This document shows positions 10,865 to 62,775 of a DNA stretch of 64,000 nucleotides, in pieces. Under the pieces are notes generated by a model. That model ran no database searches. It was not told the DNA's origin and worked only from the letters and a program-made list of their open reading frames with translations. Source of the DNA: Eledone cirrhosa. Its lineage: Eukaryota. Numbering within the stretch: the first letter of the stretch is position 1; every line of letters starts with the position of its first letter. The translations under genes were made by a program, and so were the position numbers. The stretch covers positions 40,982,001 to 41,046,000 of the forward strand of contig OZ024746.1 of NCBI GenBank assembly GCA_964016885.1, in the 5' to 3' direction.

Positions 10865-13800
10865 AAATAATTCTGCTCCTCGCAAACTACCCCATACCCC
10901 TCCCTCCCGCCCCCACTCTCCACCTTATTATTTGGACCAATCACAAGTAAACGACCTATGCTAGCTCTTCTGGTTGCTTTTTCGATATGATGGATGAACT
11001 AGGGAATTTCTGGAGAGTCAGAAGAATCTGGACACCCAAAGACAATGCAAAAGATAACGACAAATTCACCTCATGCTGCCGGACGAAAGGGCAAAGCCCT
11101 ACCCTCTTTGTTGCGGCCGCGGATGGCCAACCTAACCCCAACCCCATCAACCACACCCCTCCCTGCACCCCACCCACCAAATGCAATCCAAAACTTCAGA
11201 GTTGGTACCATGAATGTAGGGACCTTAAAAGGCCGCTCAAACGAGGTTGTAGAAATGCTTGAACGTAAGGAGGTTGATGTCTGCTGCATCCAAGAGACCA
11301 GGTGGAGGGGCGGGTCTGCTAGATTCATTGTGGGTAAAAAACGATGCTATAAGCTTTTCTGGGTGGGAAATGACAATGGGCTGGGTGGGGTAGGAATCAT
11401 GTTAGCAGAAAAGTGGGCAGATAAGATAATAGACGTAAATAGAGTGAACGACAGAATAATTAAAATAAGACTTGTCCTCAATAAAACTACGGTGACAGTA
11501 ATATCTGCGTACGCACCCCAATCCGGACTGCCCGGCGCTATAAAAGACAGATTCTACGAGACACTGATGCTCGCTACCTCCCAAATAACCGACAGTGACT
11601 ATATAGTTATTGCAGGCGACCTAAATGGTCACGTTGGACAACATTGTGACGGCTATGACGGAATCCATGGAGGCTACGGGTTCGGTACTAGAAATGAGGA
11701 AGGCTCCAGAATCCTGGAATTCTGCGACGCAAATAACTTAACTATCTGTAACACTAACTTCAAAAAACGAGACAATCACTTGATCACCTATAGATCGGGG
11801 GAACACACAAGCCAGGTAGATTATATCCTTACCAGAAGACGTGACAGAGTGTCTGTTGTTAACACTAAATCCCTCCCCCATGAAGAATTCACCTCCCAAC
11901 ATAGACTGATGATTAGCGACCTCATAGTCAGGACGAGACGTACTAGACAGCGGAAGAGGACTATCCTCAGGAGAAAAATATGGAAGCTAAAGGACCCCAT
12001 AGCCAGAAATAAATTTCAAAGCATATTACTTGACGCTTTCGATAGTAAGGAAGAGCAATTAGAGTCGTATAATATAGAGGAACAGTGGGAATTCCTGAGA
12101 GCAAACCTGCTGACGGCGGCAGACGAAGTCTGTGGCTGGAGCAGGCCTGTAGGTAGGAGGAGAGTAACATGGTGGTGGAACAGTAAGGTGGAGGGGTCAA
12201 TTAAGGCCAAAAAGCAAGCTTGGAAAGTATGGCGGGATGGGGGAAGTAGAGAAGACTATCAAGTGGCCAGGAGGGAAGCTAGGAGACAAGTGTACTTAGC
12301 AAGAAGGGAAGCTGAGGAAAGAAAGTTCAAGCATGTTCTACAACGTGAGGACCAAAAACGTGAGGTGTTCAGGATTGCCAGGCAATGTGTCAAGGAAAAC
12401 CGTGATATTGTCGGGGAGAAGTGTGTACTTAACGATGATGGCATACTTGCCATCACCGACGCTGATAAGAAGGTAGCTTGGAAGTGTCACTACGAAAGGC
12501 TTCTAAATGAGGAGAACAAATGGGAGAAAGACAGTCTCCCCCACATCGACCCAATAGAGGGACCAGCAGTGTTAGTCCAGGGTAGTACAATAAGCAAGGC
12601 AATCAAAGATATGAAGACGGGTAAGGCGGCTGGTCCTTCGGAAATAGTTGCTGGGATGCTGAAGGCAGCTGGTTCGGTGGGACACACCATGGTCACCCGG
12701 ATAGTTAACCAAGTCGTACAGAATGGGGTTGTTCTGAAGGACTGGCGTAGCAGCATCATCGTTAACTGCTATAAGGGAAAAGGAGATGCCCAAGATAGGA
12801 GTAACTATAGAGGCATTAAATTAATCGACCAGGTCATGAAGGTCACGGAAAAAGTAATAGCGCAACTAATCAGAGAGAGAATTGATCTAGATGAAATGCA
12901 GTTCGGGTTTGTGTCAGGCAAAAGTACCACAGACGCTCTTTTCATTGTACGACAACTACAGGAGAAGTACCTAGCTAAAAGTAAACCCCTATACTTAGCT
13001 TTCGTCGACTTGGAGAAAGCCTTCGACAGAGTCCCCCGTTCCATTATCTGGTGGTCTCTTAGAAAACTAGGTGTTGACGAATGGCTTGTGAGAGCTATAC
13101 AAGCCATGTATAAAGAAACAGTCAGTAAGGTTAGAATTAACAACGAATATAGTGAAGAGTTTAGCGTAAAAGTTGGTGTCCATCAGGGCTCTGTTCTTAG
13201 CCCCCTACTATTTATTATTGCCCTTCAGGCTATAACAGAGGAGTTCAAGACCGGCTGCCCATGGGAACTCCTATACGCAGATGATCTAACGCTCATAGCT
13301 GAATCAATGACCGAACTAGAGAAGAAATTCCAAACATGGAAGCACGGCCTAGAATCAAAAGGCCTTAAAATTAACCTGGCTAAGACTAAAGTTCTAGTTT
13401 GTAGGAAAGAAAATAAGGCGGCGGTCCCATCTGGGAAATGGCCATGCTCAGTGTGTAGGAAAGGCGTAGGTAGAAACTCCATTTTATGTCCCAAATGCAA
13501 AGTATGGGTGCATAAAAGATGTAGTGGGATCACAGGTAAGCTAACTAAGAACATAGATTTTACATGTGGCCGGTGCTCTGGTGCAATAAGTAGCAGCAAG
13601 TGCCCACAAAATACTAGCTCCTTCAACTGCGCAGAGGGTTCTATAGAAATAGTGGACAGCTTCCATTACCTGGGTGACAAAATCAGCAGTGGGAGAGGGT
13701 GCTCTGAAAGTACAGTAGCTAGAGTCAGAACTGGATGGAAAAAGTTCAGAGAGCTTATACCACTATTAGCCGCTAGAGGGTTCTCCCTAAAAATGAAAGG

Positions 13801-14748
13801 CAGGTTATACGATGCCTGCATACGAACAGCAATGCTGCATGGCAGTGAGACCTGGGCATTGTGTGCAGAGGATATACGCAGACTAGAGAGGAACGAAGCT
13901 TGCATGCTCCGCTGGATGTGCAATAGTAATATACGTGAACAGCAAAGCATAAACAAACTAAGGAAAAAATTAGAAATAAGAGGGATCAGATGTTGTTTAC
14001 TCGAGAGAAGGCTACGTTGGTACGGTCACGTGATGTGCATGAAAGACGACAGCTGTATAACAAAGTGCAGGGCAATAAAGATAGACGGTAGCCACGGAGT
14101 AGGCAGACCCAGAAAAACATGGGACGAGCTGATAAATTCCGACCTCACACGCTTACACCTCTCCAAGACAATGTCACTGGACCGAGACCTTTGGCGGTAC
14201 TCAGTAATAGAGAAGACCCGCCTTACCTAAATACAAAGTAAAAACCTACTACAGTCAGTAGGCATCTCTATCAAAACACACCCCCGTCCCACCACCTCCA
14301 CCCCATCCACACCACCCCTTTCAATGTAAAGTTATGTTGGTACCACAACATCCAGGCCGAAACAAATGAGATCGTGTAGGTGTCACGACAAAAAAAAAAA
14401 ACACACAGTCCACGCTGTAAATGTGGCCGTGTAGGCAACACGGTAAAAACCTCCCAGCCCCACACTGTAAATGTGGTTGGTGTTAGGAAGGGCATCCAGC
14501 TGTAGAAAACCCGCCAGACAGTCCACGCTGTAATGTGGCCGTGTAGGCAACACGGTAAAAACCTCCCAGCCCCACACTGTAAATGTGGTTGGTGTTAGGA
14601 AGGGCATCCAACTGTAGAAAACCCGCCAGACAGTCCTATGCGAGCAAGACAACCACTCTTGCCTCAAGTGGGAAAACCCCCGTCCAAACCCATGCAAGCG
14701 TGGAACACGGACGCTAAACCTGATGATGATGATGATGATGATGATGAT
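10865..14748 (+). mobile_element. Apparently full-length RTE-clade non-LTR retrotransposon
   Basis: Single uninterrupted 1061-aa ORF, 3' UTR with ~113-bp tandem duplication (14405-14635) and (GAT)n tail ending ~14748; interrupts a host repeat (..AAAGACATTC | CAGCTATAAC..). Confidence 0.93.
11045..14230 (+). CDS. RTE ORF: APE endonuclease + reverse transcriptase with inserted PHD-type zinc finger
   Basis: APE motifs GTMNVG, IQETR, SAYAP, GDLNGH, VDYIL; RT motifs DLEKAFD, QGSVLSP, YADD; C4HC3 finger CSVC..CPKC..HKRC..CGRC; C-terminal LRWYGHV..GRP. Confidence 0.93.
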   Translation: MQKITTNSPHAAGRKGKALPSLLRPRMANLTPTPSTTPLPAPHPPNAIQNFRVGTMNVGTLKGRSNEVVEMLERKEVDVCCIQETRWRGGSARFIVGKKRCYKLFWVGNDNGLGGVGIMLAEKWADKIIDVNRVNDRIIKIRLVLNKTTVTVISAYAPQSGLPGAIKDRFYETLMLATSQITDSDYIVIAGDLNGHVGQHCDGYDGIHGGYGFGTRNEEGSRILEFCDANNLTICNTNFKKRDNHLITYRSGEHTSQVDYILTRRRDRVSVVNTKSLPHEEFTSQHRLMISDLIVRTRRTRQRKRTILRRKIWKLKDPIARNKFQSILLDAFDSKEEQLESYNIEEQWEFLRANLLTAADEVCGWSRPVGRRRVTWWWNSKVEGSIKAKKQAWKVWRDGGSREDYQVARREARRQVYLARREAEERKFKHVLQREDQKREVFRIARQCVKENRDIVGEKCVLNDDGILAITDADKKVAWKCHYERLLNEENKWEKDSLPHIDPIEGPAVLVQGSTISKAIKDMKTGKAAGPSEIVAGMLKAAGSVGHTMVTRIVNQVVQNGVVLKDWRSSIIVNCYKGKGDAQDRSNYRGIKLIDQVMKVTEKVIAQLIRERIDLDEMQFGFVSGKSTTDALFIVRQLQEKYLAKSKPLYLAFVDLEKAFDRVPRSIIWWSLRKLGVDEWLVRAIQAMYKETVSKVRINNEYSEEFSVKVGVHQGSVLSPLLFIIALQAITEEFKTGCPWELLYADDLTLIAESMTELEKKFQTWKHGLESKGLKINLAKTKVLVCRKENKAAVPSGKWPCSVCRKGVGRNSILCPKCKVWVHKRCSGITGKLTKNIDFTCGRCSGAISSSKCPQNTSSFNCAEGSIEIVDSFHYLGDKISSGRGCSESTVARVRTGWKKFRELIPLLAARGFSLKMKGRLYDACIRTAMLHGSETWALCAEDIRRLERNEACMLRWMCNSNIREQQSINKLRKKLEIRGIRCCLLERRLRWYGHVMCMKDDSCITKCRAIKIDGSHGVGRPRKTWDELINSDLTRLHLSKTMSLDRDLWRYSVIEKTRLT

Positions 14749-25035: not shown

Positions 25036-26427
25036 CACATCATAAAGGGGCGCTGGAGTTTCCCTCATAGTCTTTTAGGCAGGCCAACATACTCGCAACA
25101 TTACCGAGGATGATAGCGAGGCCAAGGTGCTGGGGCAACCAAGCACACGCACGAGTCCCATTTCTTTTGTAAATTGTTACTATTTTAATGATGAGTTATT
25201 TTTTAAAATACGAATATCATAGCATATCAAAATAGACATATAGATGGTATGATGCTTGGGGTCCTAAGAAAAAACGAAACCGACTCTGAAGTACTCGCTA
25301 GCTTGTCCAGCTGGCCCTAACTTAAATGGTCATTTATTACAACCCCATTTACATCTATGATGTTTTAAAGGAATATTAAATCTGGCTTTAGTAATATTTA
25401 TTTAAATCGTGACGAAAGGGAAGGATAGCACAGTGAACCATAATGGGATTAGAAATCAGAACTTAACGGTCTGTAAATAAACATCGCAGGTATTTTGTTT
25501 GACGTTCTTACGATTCTACCTGTCCCGTATTTATCTAGTTCTTTTCTGCTTAATATTTTTCTAATTCCAAATCAAACTTGGCAGTGGAAGGAGTGTGAAG
25601 TTCACTTTCGTTAAATAACAGCGAGTAATATGTCAAAACATGCTGCTTTCATATGAAAAAAGCGCTGCCTACCGTGTAGAAAACACGAGCCTATATACTA
25701 AAGTCAAGTTGAACATAAAAAATGCAATCAGAAATAATTATACAGTGTAGAAACTTTACTCAATAAATTCATTCAATCATTTCGTGAAGTACGGGAGACA
25801 ACTCTGAACTCCCTCGCAAAACAAATTTCACGGTTTTTGACGATGAAAGAATTGTGAAATGAATGCCAAAATATTGTACACATGAAAGCGTGAATAATTA
25901 GCCTGTTTTTTTGCTAAAAAGTGTTTCGAAATATTATAAATTAGTATAAATTTATATATTTAGTATAATCTATACTAAAAATTTACATCGAGCAAATGTT
26001 AATTTTTCTTCACTTCTAATATTATATTTATATTTTTGATATTCACTACATTAAATATGTTAATACGCATTTTTTTAGTTATAAACACATAAACATGACG
26101 ATGATGATAATAGAAGCGCTAAAAATACACACACACATACATATGGGTATACCCGAGGAAAGCACCCCTAATTAGCATTTCGCACACTAAATAGAAACAC
26201 GGTAGGTTTCACATATGAAATATAGAAAGACTTCCGTTAACTGACGCTATCTATGTAATTTCCAAATTACAAAGATCTCAAATATAAAAAACAACAGAGA
26301 AGGGACAAAATTCCAATGAAAACTAATGATAGAAAGTTTGAATAATGTAGACAATGCGGTATTAGAAAGTATCTGGTCTTTAAGTAAACTGGAGAAACAA
26401 CCGATGTTCTCGTTTTATTAGATTTCA

Positions 26428-26627
26428 NNNNNNNNNNNNNNNNNNNNNNNNNNNNNNNNNNNNNNNNNNNNNNNNNNNNNNNNNNNNNNNNNNNNNNNNN
26501 NNNNNNNNNNNNNNNNNNNNNNNNNNNNNNNNNNNNNNNNNNNNNNNNNNNNNNNNNNNNNNNNNNNNNNNNNNNNNNNNNNNNNNNNNNNNNNNNNNNN
26601 NNNNNNNNNNNNNNNNNNNNNNNNNNN
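26428..26627. other. Assembly gap (200 N) with near-identical ~220-bp sequence on both sides
   Basis: 26205-26427 matches 26628-26849 except for a 1-bp indel. Confidence 0.97.
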
Positions 26628-27177
26628 GGTTTCACATATGAAATATAGAAAGACTTCCGTAACTGACGCTATCTATGTAATTTCCAAATTACAAAGATCT
26701 CAAATATAAAAAACAACAGAGAAGGGACAAAATTCCAATGAAAACTAATGATAGAAAGTTTGAATAATGTAGACAATGCGGTATTAGAAAGTATCTGGTC
26801 TTTAAGTAAACTGGAGAAACAACCGATGTTCTCGTTTTATTAGATTTCAACCGAGAAGCATATTAACTTAGCTGGCAAAACTTAGAGATGATCTGCTTTT
26901 CGTTCATATTTCAGTCTCTTTCCTCCTCCTCCTTTCTCTCTCTCTCGAGAGAGGCTATAGCAGTGTATGTGAGAGAGATAGATTATAGCAGAATGTGTGC
27001 GCGAGAGAGAGAGAATATAACAGCATGTGTGTAAGAAGGAAGACAGAGAGGTAGGCAGTCACGTTTTTGACCGGTCGTTCTGACAGATAAATTGGCTGTC
27101 GGGAATGATTCTTAATCTTAGAGTTGTCTACCTTGTCCGCTGTTTTTTTAAATTTAAATTTAATTTAAATTTTGAAC

Positions 27178-28020: not shown

Positions 28021-28390
28021 TAAGTGTTGAAATTAATGGATGCAAGATTTCACAGCACCAGCATCAATCCTTCATAATCAACCGCAAGATTTGAACTTTC
28101 CATCCGACCCTCGTACACACACACACATATATATATATTATCTTACTTGTTTCAGACATTAGACTGTGCCCATGCTGGGGCACCACGATTAAAGGATTTT
28201 CTTGACCTCAATTCCAGTACATATATTTTAAAATCTCGTATTTATTTTATCGATCTCTTCTATTCTCTTTGAAACGTGTATGTGTCTGTGTTCATATGTA
28301 TGACAGTACCCTATCGCTTGCGACGAGGATTCTTCCAGTTAAGTTTCTCAAATGGAACTGCCTGAAATTAACGACATATGTATCGATCTA

Positions 28391-28460
28391 TCTACCTACC
28401 TACCTACCTACCTACCTACCTACCTACCTACCTACCTACCTACCTACCTACCTACCTACC
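28391..28460. repeat. (CTAC)n tetranucleotide microsatellite
   Basis: Direct reading. Confidence 0.95.
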
Positions 28461-28929
28461 TGTCTATCTACCTGCCAATTTACCTGTCTGCCTACAGATC
28501 TGTCTACATATTTGTCTCCCTCTCTAATATATACATATGTCTACGTATGAATAGATATATTTGTGTGTGTGGCCGTCAGATGTATAAGTGCATTTCAAGA
28601 ACTACGAAGAATTACAAGTTACTTAATCCGGGGAGGATTCACAATAGCTTCAGTAACTTCGGGAGACGATTTGTGTGTGGTGTGTGTGTGTGTGTGTGTG
28701 TGAGTGTGTGTATATATATGTATATATAGCTTAGTAAAATCGAAGCTTTGGCTGTGGCCAAGCAAAGTCGACCTACAATAAGGAATGTGTAGCAAAGCAC
28801 TCAATAAGAGTAGGTCCTTAGAATAATAACATACGTTTAAATAGCTTGACAAATTGAAAATTGCGGTAGGCAAAACCCAACCATACAATGCCAAAACAAC
28901 GAAAGAACTAATCAGGTTAAAACAGACCT

Positions 28930-31350
28930 ACAGTCCAGCATTCGCGCATGCGCAGTACGGTCCAGCCTTCGCGCATGCGCAGTGCTGTCCAAACTTGGCG
29001 CGTGCGCAGTGCGGTCCAACCTTCACGCATGCGCAGTGGTATCCAACCTTCGCGCATGCGCAGTACGGCCCAACCTTCGCGCATGCGCACTACGGTCAAC
29101 CATCGCGCATGCGCAGTGCTGTCCAACCTTAGCGCATGCGCAGTGCTGCCCAAATTTGGCGCATGCGCAGTGCGGTCCAGCCTTCACGCATGCGCAGTGG
29201 AATCCATCCTTCGCGCATGTGCAGTACGGTCCAACTGTCGCGCATGCGCACTACGGTCTGACCTTAGCGCATGCGCAGTGCGGTTCAACCTACGCGCATG
29301 CGCTGTACGGTCCAACCTTCGCGCATTCGCTGTACGGCCCAACCTTCGCGCATGCGCACTGCGGTTAAACATACGCACATGCGCAGTACGGTCAGACCTT
29401 CGCGCATGCGCAATAAAGTCTAACCTTCGCGCATGCGCACTACGGTCCAACCTACACGCCAGCGCAGTGCTGTCCAACCTACGCGCATGCGCAGTCCAGC
29501 CTTCACGCATACGCAGTGGGATCCAACCTTCGCGCAAGTGCAGTGCGCATGCGCGATGGTTCCACCGTACTGCGCATGCGCGAAGGTTGGACCGTACAGC
29601 GCATGCGCTAAGATTGGACCGTAGTGCGCATGCGCGACGGTGGGACCGTACTGCGCATGCGCGAAGTTTGGATCCCACTGCGCATGCGTGAAGGCTGGAC
29701 CGCAGTCCGCATGCGGTAAGGTTGGCCAGCACTGCGCATGCGCTAAGGTTGGACCGTAGTGCGCATGCGCGAAGGTTGTGATGTAGTGCGCATGCGCGAT
29801 GGTTGGACTATAGTGCGCATGCGCGACCGCTGGACCGTAGTGCGCATGCGTGACGATTGGATCCCACTGCGCATGCGTGAAGGCTGGACCGCACTGCGCA
29901 TGCGCCATGGTTGGACAGCACTGCGCATGCGCTAATGTTGGACCGTAGTGCGCATGCGCGAAATTCAACCGTACCGCGCATGCGCGAAGGTCGGACCCTA
30001 CTGCGCAAGCGCGAAGGTTGGACTGTACTGCGCATGCGCGATGGTTGGACCGTACTGCGCATGCGCGATGGTTGGACCGTAATGCACATGCGCGGGGGCC
30101 GGACCTTACTGCGCATGCGCGAAGGTCGGACCGTACTGCGCATGCGCGTAGGTTGAACCGCAGTGCGCATGCGCGAAGGTTGGACCGTGCTGCGCATGCG
30201 CGAAAGTTGGACCGTACTGCGCATGCGCTAAGGGTGGACCGTACAGCGCATGCGCGTAGGTTGAACCGCACTGCGCATGCGCAGTACGGTCGACCTTCGC
30301 GCATGCGCACTACGGTCCAACCTTAGCGCATGAGCAGTGCTGTACAACCTTGGCGCATGCGCAAAGCGGTCCAGCCTTCACGCATGCGCAGTGGGATCCA
30401 ACCTTCGCGCATGCGCAGTACGGTCCAACCGTCGCGCATGCACACTACGGTCCAGCCTTCGTGTATGCGCACTACGGTCCAACCTTAACGCATGCACAGT
30501 GCTGTCCAAACTTGGCGCATGCCACGTGCGGTCCAGCCTTCACGCATGCGCAGTGGGATCCAACCTTCGCGCATGCGCAGTGCGGTCCATCCTTGGCGCA
30601 TGCGCAGTACAGTCCGACTCTCGTGCATGCGCAGTGGGATCGAACCTTCGCGCATGCGCAGTACGGTGCAATCTTCGCGCATACACACTGCGGCCCAACC
30701 TTCGCGCATGCGCACTGCGGTCCAACCTTGGCGCATGCGCAGTACAGTCCGACTCTCGTGCATGCGCAGTGGGATCGAACCTTCGCGCATGCGCAGTACG
30801 GTGCAATCTTCGCGCATACACACTGCGGCCCAACCTTCGCGCATGCGCACTGCGGTCCAACCTTCGCGCATGCGCACTGCGGTCCAACCTTCGCGCATGC
30901 GCACTGCGGTCCAACCTTGGCGCATGCGCAGTACAGTCCGACTCTCGTGCATGCGCAGTACGGTGCAATCTTCGCGCATGCGCAGTGCGGTCCATCCTTC
31001 GCGCATGCGCAGTACGGTACAACCTTCGCGCATGCGCACTGCGGTACAACCTTAGCGCATGCGCACTACGATCCAATCTTGGCGCATGTGCAGTGCGGCC
31101 CTACCTTGGCGCATGCGCAGTGCGGTCCAATCTTGGCGCATGCGCTGTGCGGTTCAGCCTTCGCGCATGCGCAGTGCGGTCCAACATTCGCGCATGCGCA
31201 CTGCGGTCCAACCTTAGCGCATGTACACTGCTGTCCAACCTTCTCGTACGCGCAGTGCGTTTCAACCTTCGCGCATGCGCACTGCGGTCCAACCTTAGCG
31301 CATGTACACTGTGGTCCAACCTTCGCGTATGCGCAGTGCGGTTCAACCTT
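28930..31350. repeat. 27-bp GC-rich satellite, about 90 units, consensus approx. CGGTCCAACCTTCGCGCATGCGCAGTA; central block ~29543-30277 inverted
   Basis: 9-aa periodicity in the overlapping ORFs (e.g. TFAHAQYGP); palindromic core GCGCATGCGC in most units; orientation switches near 29543 and 30277. Confidence 0.97.
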
Positions 31351-31486
31351 AATTTAGAAAATTAATATTAGTTTTGATTATCAAATATTATTAGCATGCT
31401 TTCCAGCATAGTTACGTCCCTTTACGATAATAATTGTTTCTACATTTGGCACAAGGCCAGCTATTACCCAGTACATTACTGGTACT

Positions 31487-34412
31487 GGATGATGGATCAG
31501 CTGTCTCTGAGACAAATATAAAGAATGCAGTTTTGTCCTGCAGAAGAGCCATCAAAATGGGCACTTTGAATGTGAGGACTATTCGAACGCTGGAGAAGAG
31601 AGAGGAGTTGGGACATCTGTTCGAGGAGAGTGGTATACAGATACTTGCGATCCAAGAACACAGGATTCTACACGATGAGCCCGTGAGGAGTGTGATGATC
31701 GGGAGGAAGAGCCAGCTCATCACTACATCGGCAGTGAAGAACACAACAAATGCTGCAGTGGGAGGAGTGGGTTTTGTGTTCAGTGCAAAAACCAATCTGT
31801 TGGTGAGGGAAATAATGCCTATCTCCCCGCGAGTGTTGAGGGTGACCTTCAATGGAAACCCAAGACTGACAGTCATCTCAGCCTATAGTCCAACCGAGGG
31901 GGACAGTGATGTGAATGCGGAGGAGTTCCATGAGGAGGTGTGTAGAGCTGTCAACACCACTCAGGCACACAATATCCTGCTTGTTTTGGGGGACTTCAAT
32001 GCACACCTGAGTAAGGAGGGCAGTGAAGATCCTTGCTGGTACTTCCATAACAACACCAACCGAAATGGAAGACTACTGAGAGACACCCTGCTGGAGGCGA
32101 ACTTGATGGCGACCAACCTAAGGTTTAGGAAGAATCTGGGGAAGATGTGGACCTACATCTCAGATATGCACCTGTCCAAGTCCCAGATTGATTTCATTCT
32201 GGTGAGGAAAAAGTGGCGGAATAGTGTTCTGAACACGGAACCATACATCTATTTCAGTACACTGGGTAGTGACCACCGGCTTGTTATGAGTGAGGTCCGC
32301 GTGAGCTTAAGAAAGAGCAAGGCTCAGCCCCGGAGAACAATCTATGACTGGGGAGCTTTCAAGGAAGATGATAAGCTACAGGAGAGGTTCACAGTGGAAG
32401 TGAGAAACAGGTTTAGTGCTCTGTGTGGAGAGATTGGATGGACTGAGGAGAGTGTGACGAGGAGGTACGGGCACTTCTCCAATGCAGTGGCGAAAGCAAG
32501 TGAAACCCTGGTGCCGAGGAAAAAGAACAAAGGGAAGCACGTCAGCTCTGCAAACCCAAAAGTGTGTGCAGCCAGAGAACACCTGAAAGCTGCCAGGGAC
32601 CAATTCTATGCTGATCCTACGGAGGAGAGGATGGAGACTGTGGAGGTGATGAGGGAAGAGCTCTGTACCGCTTACACTGAGGTCAGAGAGGAGGCACTGA
32701 TAGAGAAGATCAGAAGTGTGGAGAGAGCGGTTGACAGATCTGGATGTAAGGAGAGCTGGATGATCATCAACGAGATCACAGGGAGGAAGAAAAGGTGTTC
32801 GAGTCAGATCCAGGGAACGGGGCCCGAGGATAGGAAGAGGAAATGGCTAGACCATTTTAGGACCCTACTAGGAGAGCCACCCTCCACAGCCCAGAGCACT
32901 GGGGAGATCAGGCGGCTGTTTGAGGAACTGGATGTTGAGACAGAGCCCTTCACCAGAGAGGAGCTTCAGAGAGCCAAGAAGAAGATCAAGGAGGGCAAGG
33001 CTCATGGAGAAGATGGAGTGGCATCAGAGGTGATGAAGAGGTGGAGAAAGGAGTTGCCCCGAATCAGTGGAGGATCAGTAACATCGTCCCAGTGCCAAAG
33101 AAGGGAGATCTCTCTAACACCAACAACTACCGGGGGATCTCACTGACGTCACTTGTGGCAAAGACCCTCAACAGGATGATTCTTAACAGGATCCAGCCTG
33201 AGATGGAGAAGAAGCTCAGGGACAACCAGAACGGCTTCAGAGAGGGTAGATCAACCACCAGTCACATCCTGATGCCGAGGAGGATATTAGAGGGAGCTAG
33301 AGCAAAATGCCTTCCTGCGGTCATGGTTTTCATTGACTTTAGGAAGGCCTTTGATTCTGTGGACCGTTACTGCCTGATGAAGATCTTACAGGCTTATGGA
33401 ATCCCCAAGAGGATAGTGGACCTGATATCACTGCTCTACACCAACATCACAAGTCATTACACCTGATGGGATGACAGAGTTCTTTGAGATACTGGCTGGA
33501 GTGCTCCAGGGAGATACATTGGCTCCCTACCTTTTTATCATCGTAGTGGACTATTGTATGCGCCTTGCACTGGAGAAACACCAGGACTCTGGCTTTACTG
33601 TAGCACCGGCTCAGAGCAGGAGAGTTGGGGCGAAAAAGGTATCGGATGCTGAATTTGCCGACGACATAGTTTTGGTGACAAATACAGTGAAGGAGGCAAA
33701 GGATTTGATGCGGGAGGTTGAGACTGTGTCAATGAGTGTGGGGCTGAGAATGAATGAGACTAAAACAAAATATCTGGTAGAGAATGTTGAGAAGCCAGAG
33801 GGGATCACTAATGTAGGCGGGAAGCCGCTGGAATTGGTTGAGGACTTCCTGTATTTGGGAGCAAAGATTGGGAATACGGAGAATGATGTGGTTGAGAGGA
33901 AGAGCAAGGCCTGGGCGGCGTGCCACAGCTTGAGATCGGTGTGGAAGTCGGACCTTCGTAGAGACCTGAAAATCCGCCTCTTCATTGCTGTAGTGGAGTC
34001 TGTGCTGCTGTATGGGTCTGAGATTTGGACACTGACCAAGAAACTCACTCAGATGGTGGATGGGTGCTACACGAGAATGCTGAGGATGGCTCTGAACATT
34101 AATCAGTATACACTGAAGATGAAAAACTCAGAGCTGTATGGGAGCATCCCAAAAGTCAGCTCAAAAGTGACACATAGGAGACTGAGGTTGGCTGGACATG
34201 CTCACCGACATCCAGAGTTGACATTGCACTCAGTGCTCCTTTGGGAGCCCCTACATGGACACACTAGAAGAGGAAGACCAAGGTTAACATATGTTGATGC
34301 CCTAAGGACAGACACTGGTCTGTTGGAGATGCAGGATATGGCAGCGATAATGAGGGACAGAGACCGCTGGAGAGAACTCGTCCATGGATCTCGGGAATTT
34401 TACCCGCCTTAG
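31487..34412 (+). mobile_element. RTE-like non-LTR retrotransposon (second family), decayed, inserted in a SINE
   Basis: APE motifs (GTLNVRT, IQEHR, SAYSPT, GDFNAH, SDHRLV) and RT motifs (DFRKAFD, QGDTLAP, FADD) spread over three frames (31434-33146, 33041-33466, 33471-34412); 12-bp TSD ATTACTGGTACT at 31475-31486 and 34413-34424. Confidence 0.93.
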
Positions 34413-59984: not shown

Positions 59985-62775
59985 AAAATAATGAAATTAT
60001 TGTGTAAAGTGCTCAGGTGCACTACAACTCGTCAATATAGTACATAGAATAATACACAAATGCCAGGGAAGTACATGTTTGTATGTGTTAGCTGTAGTGT
60101 TGGCGGATCTCGGGAAGCATGGAGGCCTTAAAGGATGCAGTGTCTCGACAGCTAACAACTGATGCAGGTAGTTTGTTCCATGCTTCAGCAACTCTGAGCG
60201 TGAAAAAATGTTTCCGAAAGTCATGGGAACTGTGCTGTTTTCTTACTTTGTGGGCATGTCCACGTGTGTTAGACACATGGAAATCGAAAAGGCACTCAGG
60301 GTTGTTGTTGGCAACATGGTTAACAATTTTGTGGGTGTTTACCAAGTCAGTTGCCAGGCGTCGGAGCTTCAATGAATCCATGCCCAGGGAAGCAAGGCGC
60401 TCAGAGTATGGTAGATGCCTGATGCAGGGTATTCGCTTGGTTGCACGTCTCTGAACAGTTTCCAGGCGGTCAATGTCCTGAGCAAGATAGGGGTTCCAGA
60501 CTGGTGATGCAAATTCTAAGTGTGGTCGCACCATAGCTGTATACAGCCTTAAATAGATATCTGGAGAGCGGCTGACAAAGGTCTTGCTGAGTGATGCTAA
60601 GACACCCTCGGCCCTCTTGACAATTTTAGAGACGTGCCTCGTCCAACGCAAATCGCTGCTGACCGTAATGCCCAGGTCACGTTCACAGGAAGACTTCTTG
60701 ATATTAGTGCTGTGGAGGGAGTATGTGGACGCTGGGTTTTTACTCCCAAAATGCATGGTGGTGCACTTGTCCACAGCTAGCTTGAGTTGCCAGTTTGAGA
60801 TCCACTGTTGCATTGTGTCCAGGTCAGACTGCAAGCAAGATCTATAGTGTTCAGGATCTGTCCTTTTTATCTCAAGGTACAGCTTGATGTCGTCTGCGTA
60901 CTTTAGTACTGTGGCATTCCTTAAGTTGGCATCTATGTCATTAATATATGCCACAAACAAAAGGGGGCCAAGAACAGATCCCTGAGGTACACCAGATGAC
61001 ATCTCATATGGTGAGGAATGCTGTGCCAGAACCGTGACTACCTCTCTTCGACTGAGAATGAAGGACTTCAACCAGTTAAAAAGATCATCCTTCACACCCA
61101 TTGCAGAGAGTTTTGCCATAAGCCTTTTGTGTGGCACAGAATTGAAGGCCTTCGCAAAGTCAAGGTAAACAACATCCACCCATGAGCCGCCATCAGTGAT
61201 CCGGGTGATGTCCTCAAGAAACTCTATAAGTTGATCACAGCAGCTGGAGTTGGGGATAAATCCAAATTGCGAGGGCCGGATAAGACTGTGAGAGCTCCAG
61301 AAGTTCCAAAGTGTTTCTCTGACACAGGATTCCATCAGTTTGGCGATGCAACTAGTAAGACTGACTGGACGATAGTTCACAGGTGATGTGCGGTCACCCT
61401 TTTTGAACAGAGGAATTACACTGGCAGTTTTCCACTGTTCTGGAGTAGCACTGTTGTTCAGACAGAATTGGAAGAAGCGTGATAACTGGTGTAGAAGGAA
61501 GTACCCTCCACGTTTTGCAGGTGTAAATTCCATGGTTGTAATAGAGTCCGGTGTCATAGGTGGTGGAGATGGTACATTCTGGTCTTCAAAGGTGAAAATG
61601 CCTGCATAGCATTCAGCAATGAGCTCTGCGCATTCCTTGGGGTCGTCAGTAACCTGGCTTGTGTGGGGATTGCGAAGAGGACCAACTGGAGAGTGAGGCC
61701 TCTGCTTTGAGTGAACATACTTCCAGAACACCTTACTGTCAGGGCTGGTTGCTATGCGCTGCTCAAATTGAAGCACTGCCTTTTTTGTCACCTGTTTGAG
61801 GTGGTTGGACGATCTATTTCGCCTCTTCCCATTGATGTCTGATTTGTGCAGTTTGTACTCACGTTCAGCATTGCGCCGTTCTTTTCTGGCAAGACGGACT
61901 GCTGCAGTCTCCCAAATTGCACTTTTAGGATGTTTTTTCCGCTTACGTGGCACCGATGCTGCACATGCTGTCCATATTGAGCTCAGGATGTTCTGGAGTA
62001 CAGTGTTGACATCTCCAGAGTCATAGAACTCAAGCCAGTTTGGCCGTTGCAACTCGGTGCAGTAACAGTTCCAGTCTGCTTTATTCCAGTCAAAGTGAGC
62101 AGTTTGGAGATGGTTGTGGTTCTTGTTACTGCCCATGAGGGATAGATTGGCAATGATCATAGCATGATCAGAGTCACCTAAAGGTTCCTCAGCAGTAACA
62201 CTAATGACCGTTTCAGGAGTAGTGGTGAAGAGTAGGTCCAAAGTGTTGTCACCTCTCGTTGGGGAGGTGACCACCTGGGACCAACTCAAGTCCAGCACCA
62301 GCTCAAGGAAGTCATTTGCACTTGGCGGCCAACGAAAGGTCTCCCAGTCAATCTCAGGGTGATTGAAGTCACCTGCAATGAAAACATAAGTGGCTGTCTT
62401 CCTGGCAGCAGCTCTGAGGATATCACAAAGTTGAGTGTCCTGATGGTAATTTGGGGGACGGTAAACGACTCCAAGTAGCAGTGTTGACATGGTCATACGT
62501 ATATCGCAGAAAAAAACTTCCTGCTGTGATTGGTTCAAATCAGCACAAGGAATTGCCGACAGATTTGACCGAACGTAGACCATTACACCACCACCACGAC
62601 GATTAATACGGTCTTTACGAAACAGGTTGTAGCCAGTCATGCTGAAAACCCCATCACAGAGTAAGGGATGTGCCCAAGTTTCCGTGACTGTAATGAAGTC
62701 CGGGTTGATACTTTTGACGTAGGAGTCAAAAAGATGAATCTTATTGCATAGACTACGTGCATTCAAGGACAACAG
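59985..62775 (-). mobile_element. CR1-type LINE ORF2 (APE + RT), lacking ORF1, with an apparent internal in-frame deletion
   Basis: 894-aa ORF: NARSL, VTETW, GGGV, YRPP, GDFNHP, SDH; RT LDFAKAF, QGSVLGP, YADD; the usual K(S/A)PGPDG segment is absent near 61500-61530. Confidence 0.92.

What the first reader, a model, noticed from the sequence alone, without database searches (positions are those of the whole stretch)
28930..31350. Array of about 90 palindromic NRF1/EWG-type sites in a 27-bp satellite
Seen: a GC- and CpG-rich 27-bp unit in AT-rich surroundings. Its core (T/C)GCGCATGCGCA is visibly better conserved than the ~15-bp spacer. Established: YGCGCATGCGCR is the consensus of nuclear respiratory factor 1 (NRF1; Drosophila EWG, sea urchin P3A2), a homodimer whose binding is blocked by CpG methylation. 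Inference: a conserved core with drifting spacers suggests a protein-binding array (homotypic enhancer, factor sink or methylation-sensitive switch) rather than a neutral satellite. A 27-bp period is about 2.5 helical turns, so neighbouring sites would fall on alternating DNA faces.
Basis: partly seen in the sequence, partly recalled or inferred. Interest (0 to 1): 0.75.

Follow-up and report, generated by a model that had tools for sequence, protein, structure and literature searches.

The report
Helitron-borne NRF1-site minisatellite, internally inverted
This block of about 90 perfect or near-perfect NRF1 transcription-factor sites is one copy of a small repeat family that also rides inside a rolling-circle transposon and borders mid-chromosome telomere-repeat blocks; the protein-binding core was likely preserved in the family's source arrays, while this copy is probably a drifting relic rather than a gene enhancer.

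Summary
The array is real: 90 cores at a 27-bp period, 58 exactly GCGCATGCGC, core 5.1% versus spacer 17.3% mismatch. The unit has two forms in this 3.0-Gb genome. Type 1 lies in the 5' non-coding part of a canonical Helitron of roughly 200 copies. Type 2, the window's form, occurs at about 20 sites. Ten of these are fold-back composites, nine near mid-chromosome and seven beside large telomere-repeat blocks; none lay inward of eight true telomeres. The window array follows a diverged piece of that Helitron, on the same side and in the same orientation as type-1 arrays (chance about 1e-4). Common transversions avoid the core (0/20 versus 13/34), but rare changes do not clearly do so (p=0.13), which fits old family-level constraint more than local selection. 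The genome encodes NRF1 with its base-reading residues intact. Binding, methylation and transcription are untested; no host gene was recognised in the window. It parallels Helitron heat-shock-element arrays and the human TERRA-promoter repeats.

The parts
28929..29541 (+). Array block 1: 23 cores of the 27-bp type-2 unit in + orientation (the last one, at 29532, degenerate)
29532..29554 (.). +/- inversion junction at a 5-bp AGTGC microhomology; cores only 13 bp apart. No such junction among 55 orientation switches at other type-2 sites
   Evidence: microhomology read from the sequence
29545..30272 (-). Array block 2: 27 cores in inverted orientation (junction unit plus 26); a true inversion, best match to flanking blocks about 80%, so not a mirror copy
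30266..30289 (.). -/+ junction: crossover inside the palindromic core, giving a 24-bp palindrome (22/24) at the tip of a long fold-back (300 nt, -156.9 kcal/mol, z -23.6; non-inverted control z -2.3)
30290..31350 (+). Array block 3: 39 units in + orientation, with a recent 135-bp (5-unit) duplication, units 62-66 = 67-71
28145..28371 (-). Non-coding piece of the array-bearing Helitron family (element on the - strand); 5.3% from the family majority, against 2.1% mean and 3.9% maximum for 27 other copies
28530..28727 (-). Single copy of the ~200-bp Helitron segment that flanks type-1 arrays as a direct repeat; 3 of 4 diagnostic sites A-like, leader and tail B-like; ends in a TG/TA tract
28711..28929 (+). 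Truncated fragment of a young high-copy repeat that begins at (TA)n tracts (3183 first-look candidates, 95-98% identical), between the TA tract and the array
31434..34412 (+). Broken LINE (endonuclease and reverse transcriptase), right neighbour, not part of the array

Best explanation
The array is a locally expanded, internally inverted copy of a 27-bp minisatellite whose core is the NRF1 site, and it is likely a relic of the Helitron lineage that captured this repeat. Steps: (1, shown) the same unit exists as type 2 in satellite/telomere-repeat composites and as type 1, two bases different, inside a Helitron. (2, inferred) An early copy of the Helitron took up a type-2 tract at a TA microsatellite by template switching; one descendant duplicated the flanking 200 bp and spread as type 1, while this sister copy kept type-2 sequence, lost the element's ends, grew to 90 units and inverted by switching strands at the palindromic core and at a 5-bp microhomology. 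(3, inferred) The core was held constant in the source arrays most likely because NRF1 dimers bind it and keep it open or transcribed, which helped those arrays or the Helitron (whose Rep/helicase remnant starts about 1 kb downstream) to be copied. (4, inferred) Here the array would still bind NRF1 if unmethylated, but it drifts almost neutrally and regulates no gene that could be seen.
For: Helitron: Rep and PIF1 domains (PF14214 E 1.6e-33, PF05970 E 3.3e-10) beside 12 of 16 type-1 arrays; 5' A|TC in 10 of 16 plus one A|CC, and 3' hairpin with CTAG|T in 4 of 4 printed. 15 of 20 copies picked by the flank alone carry type-1 units and none has a type-2 majority. The flank piece has 235 first-look candidates, so the same-side, same-orientation adjacency has a chance of about 8e-5; the window's Helitron pieces are an outgroup. 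Family-level constraint: common transversion alleles core 0/20 versus spacer 13/34 (p=0.0009) in the window and 0/20 versus 12/34 (p=0.002) in type 1; nearly all common core alleles are CpG transitions. Recent changes are equal in core and spacer at other type-2 sites (0.033 versus 0.033). NRF1 orthologue present with base-reading residues.
Against: No binding, chromatin, methylation or RNA data. The transversion test was chosen after seeing the data, and over all common alleles the contrast is weaker (p 0.04 to 0.52 by threshold and type). Shared variants are few independent events, and some are shared by both types. In the window the nearest-neighbour test still shows fewer recent changes in the core (0.028 versus 0.049, p=0.012), so some local constraint is not excluded. 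Position 0 often departs from the NRF1 pyrimidine (23 of 87 are G or A) and 10 units carry G1A, which lowers human NRF1 affinity about 4-fold. The direction type 2 to type 1 is not rooted. A 200-bp foreign fragment separates the Helitron piece from the array, so independent capture at a TA tract remains possible.
Confidence: 0.55

Rival explanations
1. Purely mechanical conservation: the palindromic core is the strand-switch and conversion point (it is its own donor in both orientations), so units with intact cores are copied and repaired more often; the NRF1 match is incidental.
For: 55 of 55 orientation switches at other type-2 sites are -/+, the kind that in the window crosses inside the core (the junctions of L043 were read); inverted blocks fold strongly; a symmetric double change CCGCATGCGG occurs.
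Against: Type-1 arrays are single-orientation yet show the same core sparing. Symmetric double changes are rare: 1 of 9, 2 of 59 and 4 of 72 distinct multi-changed cores. A non-inverted stretch folds little better than shuffles (z -2.3).
Confidence: 0.22
2. The array is a co-opted, methylation-sensitive homotypic NRF1 enhancer or sink that is selected at this locus.
For: Largest array seen (90 cores; next 60, 56 and 52), lowest core mismatch of the classes (5.1%), CpG o/e 1.29, recent core changes lower than spacer (p=0.012). Helitron-borne site clusters do recruit their factor in C. elegans (PMC6927752, passages).
Against: No host gene recognised in 64 kb (no spliced-gene prediction was run). 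Rare-allele test not significant (19/26 versus 32/28, p=0.13). Position and inversion are explained by element history. CpG transitions (6.0%) exceed other C/G transitions (2.3%) in the core.
Confidence: 0.13
3. Independent capture: an orphan type-2 tract from a satellite block landed by repair-associated template switching at a fragile TA tract that merely happened to belong to a Helitron relic.
For: Three other orphan type-2 arrays lie directly in (TA)n tracts and a fourth ends in a TA-rich tract; a TA-targeting fragment is joined directly to the array; the array has type-2 diagnostics (77 T at -9, 72 A at -5).
Against: It needs a landing on one of about 235 relics, on the right side and in the right orientation (about 1e-4 by position; larger if TA tracts are the real target).
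Confidence: 0.1

Closest known systems
Helitron-acquired heat-shock-element clusters of Caenorhabditis (Garrigues et al. 2019, PMC6927752; passages read)
   Same: Dense, repetitive clusters of one transcription-factor site inside Helitrons and their remnants, possibly first serving the element's own promoter.
   Different: Other factor (NRF1) and an animal that is probably an octopod; binding and gene regulation are shown there and untested here; a second form here borders telomere-repeat blocks.
Helentron/HINE central tandem repeats related to satellite DNA in the oyster (PMC7492417; abstract read)
   Same: Rolling-circle element with an internal tandem array that is related to stand-alone satellite arrays.
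   Different: Here a canonical A|TC...CTAG|T Helitron with a RepHel remnant, a 27-bp unit, and a conserved factor-site core.
Human subtelomeric 61-29-37 repeats, the TERRA promoter (PMC6600276, PMC5087959; passages read)
   Same: Short CpG-rich tandem unit carrying NRF1 sites next to TTAGGG arrays; at C1, C3 and C4 the G-rich strand points away from the composite, as at a chromosome end.
   Different: Here the sites are perfect palindromes, arranged as fold-backs among AT-rich tracts, at interstitial blocks, and were absent inward of 8 of 8 true telomeres examined; the window's own copy has no TTAGGG array; sequence homology to the human unit was not tested.
Heterochromatic interstitial telomeric sequences (PMC6410037; passages read)
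   Same: Large degenerate TTAGGG blocks in mid-chromosome, flanked by satellites and mobile elements, read as pericentromeric blocks or fusion scars.
   Different: A shared NRF1-site composite at their borders is not mentioned in the passages read; centromere position is unknown here.

Membership tests
NRF1 binding-site array | Core equals the GCGCATGCGC consensus | tested here: met
   58 of 90 exact, 20 with one mismatch; consensus from PMC10810270
NRF1 binding-site array | Host encodes NRF1 with R206, N242, R244 | tested here: met
   PF10491 in five exon-like matches on C15; alignment to 8k3d/8k4l shows the three residues, numbering mapped by hand from the residues named in the paper
NRF1 binding-site array | Core conserved beyond spacer | tested here: met
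   family-level, post hoc transversion test
NRF1 binding-site array | Selection on the core at this locus | tested here: inconclusive
   rare alleles p=0.13; nearest-neighbour p=0.012
NRF1 binding-site array | In vivo occupancy, open and unmethylated chromatin | not testable with these tools
   no chromatin data
Helitron internal tandem repeat | Sister arrays (type 1) lie between A|TC and hairpin-CTRR|T ends with Rep/PIF1 coding sequence | tested here: met
Helitron internal tandem repeat | This array lies inside a Helitron with both ends | tested here: not met
   only a 590-bp internal piece on the left; no RepHel match in the window; the first 38 bases of the right flank have no other match among scored hits
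Helitron internal tandem repeat | This array occupies the element's array position and orientation | tested here: met
   with a 200-bp foreign insertion between
TERRA-promoter subtelomeric repeat | Located just inside true telomeres | tested here: not met
   0 cores in 8-19 kb inward of 8 telomere-capped ends; none of 75 exact 26-mer matches is at a chromosome end
TERRA-promoter subtelomeric repeat | Adjacent to TTAGGG-type arrays | tested here: inconclusive
   7 of 10 composite sites yes (C1 at about 105 kb; C2:229.95 highly degenerate), window no
TERRA-promoter subtelomeric repeat | Drives UUAGGG-containing transcripts | not testable with these tools
Centromeric satellite | CENP-A occupancy, one block per chromosome | not testable with these tools
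   9 of 10 composite sites at 40-57% of chromosome length, but two each on C2 and C3 and none found on most chromosomes

The most novel reading that the evidence does not exclude
The type-2 composites are fossil subtelomeres: an NRF1-driven promoter for telomeric-repeat RNA that evolved convergently with the human 29-bp TERRA-promoter repeat, now preserved at chromosome-fusion scars or pericentromeric TTAGGG blocks, and a Helitron hijacked this promoter module and spread about 200 NRF1-responsive arrays; the window array is the missing link between the two forms.
Probability: 0.12. Interest if true: 0.82.

Novelty: new variant of a known kind. Interest (0 to 1): 0.5.

Why it matters
Helitrons that carry factor-site arrays and Helitron-linked satellites are known kinds. 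This case adds an NRF1 version, a likely intermediate between a satellite and its transposon-borne form, and a repeated pairing of NRF1 arrays with interstitial telomere-repeat blocks. If NRF1 binds these arrays, they would be a testable invertebrate parallel to the human TERRA promoter, a marker for fusion scars or centromeres in a lineage where these are unmapped, and a source of hundreds of methylation-sensitive sites. If not, it is a clean example of a palindrome steering satellite inversion.

Tried and rejected
Subtelomeric location: rejected for 8 of 8 telomere-capped ends followed inward; two more capped ends (C5R, C18R) were not followed. A hidden satellite block at the assembly gap 26429-26628: rejected, the gap is flanked by the same 222 bases on both sides. 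Protein-coding repeat: all six frames of the unit lack stops, so the long ORFs are expected, and the one scanned has no Pfam hit. Intron reading of the type-1 position: dropped, the element ends 0.8-2.0 kb beyond the array and no upstream exon was recognised. Other hosts: 0 matches in metagenome and viral contigs. Sequencing runs: three holders, one sample, no RNA holder listed. Singleton counts were set aside as biased by saturation. L025 was left out of type-1 variant counts because its units were extracted out of register. Literature: searches (octopus/interstitial telomeric/satellite; NRF1/tandem repeat/satellite/invertebrate; octopus/centromere/Helitron; NRF1/Helitron) listed no paper describing this family; only listings were seen, subscription papers are missing, and supplements were not opened. 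Earlier-findings look-ups by sequence and by words returned nothing.

Full report
Observation. The array spans 28929-31350 with a 27-bp period. It holds 90 cores, 58 of them exactly GCGCATGCGC, and 84 of 89 spacings are 27 bp; shuffles give 0.01 matches. It is GC- and CpG-rich against its surroundings (61.6% GC, CpG o/e 1.29 versus 39.2% and 0.49). In 87 aligned units the 10-bp core differs from consensus at 5.1% of sites and the 17-bp spacer at 17.3%.

Anatomy that was missed. The middle of the array is inverted. The right junction is a crossover inside the core that makes a 24-bp palindrome; the left junction sits on a 5-bp AGTGC microhomology with cores 13 bp apart. The inverted block is about 80% like its neighbours, so it is a rearrangement and not a mirror copy. 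300 nt around the right junction fold at z -23.6, a non-inverted stretch at z -2.3. The junctions were not checked with reads.

The family. The window is G000:C6:40,982,001-41,046,000 in a 3.0-Gb genome. That it is probably an octopod is my recollection of its short repeats and agrees with an earlier unchecked note; no call tested it. A DNA search gave 723 candidates, 40 scored. Two forms differ at two spacer positions. Type 1 gave 151 exact 26-mer matches; type 2, the window's form, gave 75, all listed, and about 20 sites. These are lower bounds.

Type 1 is a Helitron passenger. Rep or helicase sequence lies beside 12 of 16 fetched type-1 arrays (Pfam PF14214, PF05970, PF21530). The ends are canonical: A|TC in 10 of 16 (one more reads A|CC) and a hairpin with CTAG|T in the 4 printed. 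The array lies in the 5' non-coding part, about 1 kb before a 5'-truncated RepHel, between two copies of a 200-bp segment. Of 20 further copies chosen only by a flank piece (from 39 other scored hits), 15 carry type-1 units and none a type-2 majority.

The window array sits on a relic of that element. Bases 28145-28727 match the Helitron's non-coding segment, on the side and in the orientation where type-1 arrays lie. The piece has 235 first-look candidates genome-wide, so chance adjacency is about 8e-5. The window's pieces are more diverged than the other copies (5.3% versus 2.1% mean, 3.9% maximum; the 200-bp segment 10-12% versus 3-4%) and there is one segment, not two. This fits a sister copy that split before the family spread. 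A 200-bp fragment of a TA-inserting high-copy repeat lies between the TA tract and the array, which keeps independent capture possible. No RepHel or element end survives in the window.

Type 2 elsewhere. Ten sites are composites of short (-)n(+)m fold-back clusters with AATT, TAAAA, CCGGAAAT and 32-bp tracts; 55 of 55 orientation switches there are -/+. Nine of the ten lie at 40-57% of chromosome length (seven of eight chromosomes, p about 2e-4 against uniform, with the interval chosen after seeing the data). Seven border telomere-repeat-derived blocks: about 165 kb on C3, at least 85 kb on C4 and at least 250 kb on C1, with the G-rich strand pointing away from the composite, and G-rich/composite/C-rich arrangements on C8, C13 and C14. 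Against a present-day subtelomeric role, no core was found inward of 8 of 8 telomere-capped ends. The rest are orphans in TA tracts or among CCGGAAAT repeats.

Is the core under constraint? It is spared in every class (core/spacer 0.29-0.54). Variants shared between loci avoid it strongly (window 0.014 versus 0.109 per site). Common transversions number 0/20 in the core against 13/34 in the spacer (p=0.0009), and 0/20 against 12/34 in type 1; this test is post hoc, and over all common alleles p ranges from 0.04 to 0.52. Recent changes are equal at other type-2 sites (0.033 versus 0.033), lower in the window's core by one test (p=0.012) and not by another (p=0.13). CpG transitions exceed other C/G transitions (window 6.0% versus 2.3%, type 1 10.0% versus 3.0%), which suggests some germline methylation; in Octopus bimaculoides satellites are relatively more methylated than transposons (PMC9476566, passages). 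The pattern fits constraint in the source arrays followed by near-neutral decay of copies.

The factor. PF10491 matches five exon-like pieces on C15. One aligns to the human NRF1 DNA-binding domain (E 9e-28) and keeps R206, N242 and R244, the residues that read GCGCATGCGC in the crystal structure (PMC10810270, passages). Binding is therefore plausible but unshown. That methylation blocks NRF1 is stated in PMC6600276 (passages).

Local function. Five of seven non-array long ORFs scanned are LINE-type, two have no Pfam hit; no spliced-gene prediction was possible. No evidence points to a target gene.

Comparison. It works most like the Helitron-borne heat-shock-element clusters of Caenorhabditis (PMC6927752, passages) and the Helentron central repeats of oyster (PMC7492417, abstract). 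The composites resemble the human 29-bp TERRA-promoter repeats, each with two putative NRF1 sites (PMC6600276 and PMC5087959, passages), but fail the true-subtelomere test. They lie in what look like heterochromatic interstitial telomere blocks (PMC6410037, passages). Four searches found no listing that describes this family.

Verdict. Real, non-random and better explained by family history than by a local enhancer: best explanation 0.55, palindrome mechanics 0.22, local enhancer or sink 0.13, independent capture 0.10. New variant of a known kind, interest 0.5; the convergent TERRA-promoter reading has probability about 0.12.

Noticed in passing
G000:C8:30.88-31.05 Mb, C13:26.35-26.43 Mb, C14:23.85-23.93 Mb (L043, L047, L048, L051, L052, L062-L065, L131-L136): A 32-bp satellite derived from TTAGGG alternates with degenerate TTAGGG tracts in both orientations over 75-230 kb near mid-chromosome; candidate centromeric blocks or fusion scars.
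   Followed up: partly
G000:C1:217.75-218.11 Mb, C3:150.93-151.09 Mb, C4:101.49-101.57 Mb (L053, L049, L061, L137-L139, L143, L169-L176): Interstitial TTAGGG blocks of about 55% purity on three of the four giant chromosomes, each with the composite at one edge only.
   Followed up: partly
L058:4562-5010 (C12:19.50 Mb): A 28-bp satellite with a TGACGTC (CRE-like, recalled) core abuts four type-2 NRF1 units directly.
   Followed up: no
L038, L045, L046, L043 (C26:2.06 Mb, C20:34.5-34.75 Mb, C14): 10-bp CCGGAAAT repeats (ETS-site-like, recalled) flank type-2 arrays, and (GCAC)n/GCGTGATT tracts flank those on C4; several CpG-bearing promoter-like motifs cluster in these composites.
   Followed up: no
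   Followed up: no
window 26207-26850: The 200-N assembly gap is flanked on both sides by the same 222 bases, an overlap artefact.
   Followed up: yes
window 28711-28929; L114-L118: A young repeat with thousands of candidates starts at (TA)n tracts and is often truncated at (TA)n; TA tracts in this genome seem to collect fragments of many elements.
   Followed up: partly
L156, L164: Helitron copies with one hybrid 200-bp segment and no array, as expected from recombination between the direct repeats.
   Followed up: partly
window 11003-14230 (+) and 60088-62775 (-): Long LINE reading frames (1075 and 895 aa stop to stop) with endonuclease and reverse-transcriptase domains; the first also has a PHD-finger match.
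   Followed up: partly
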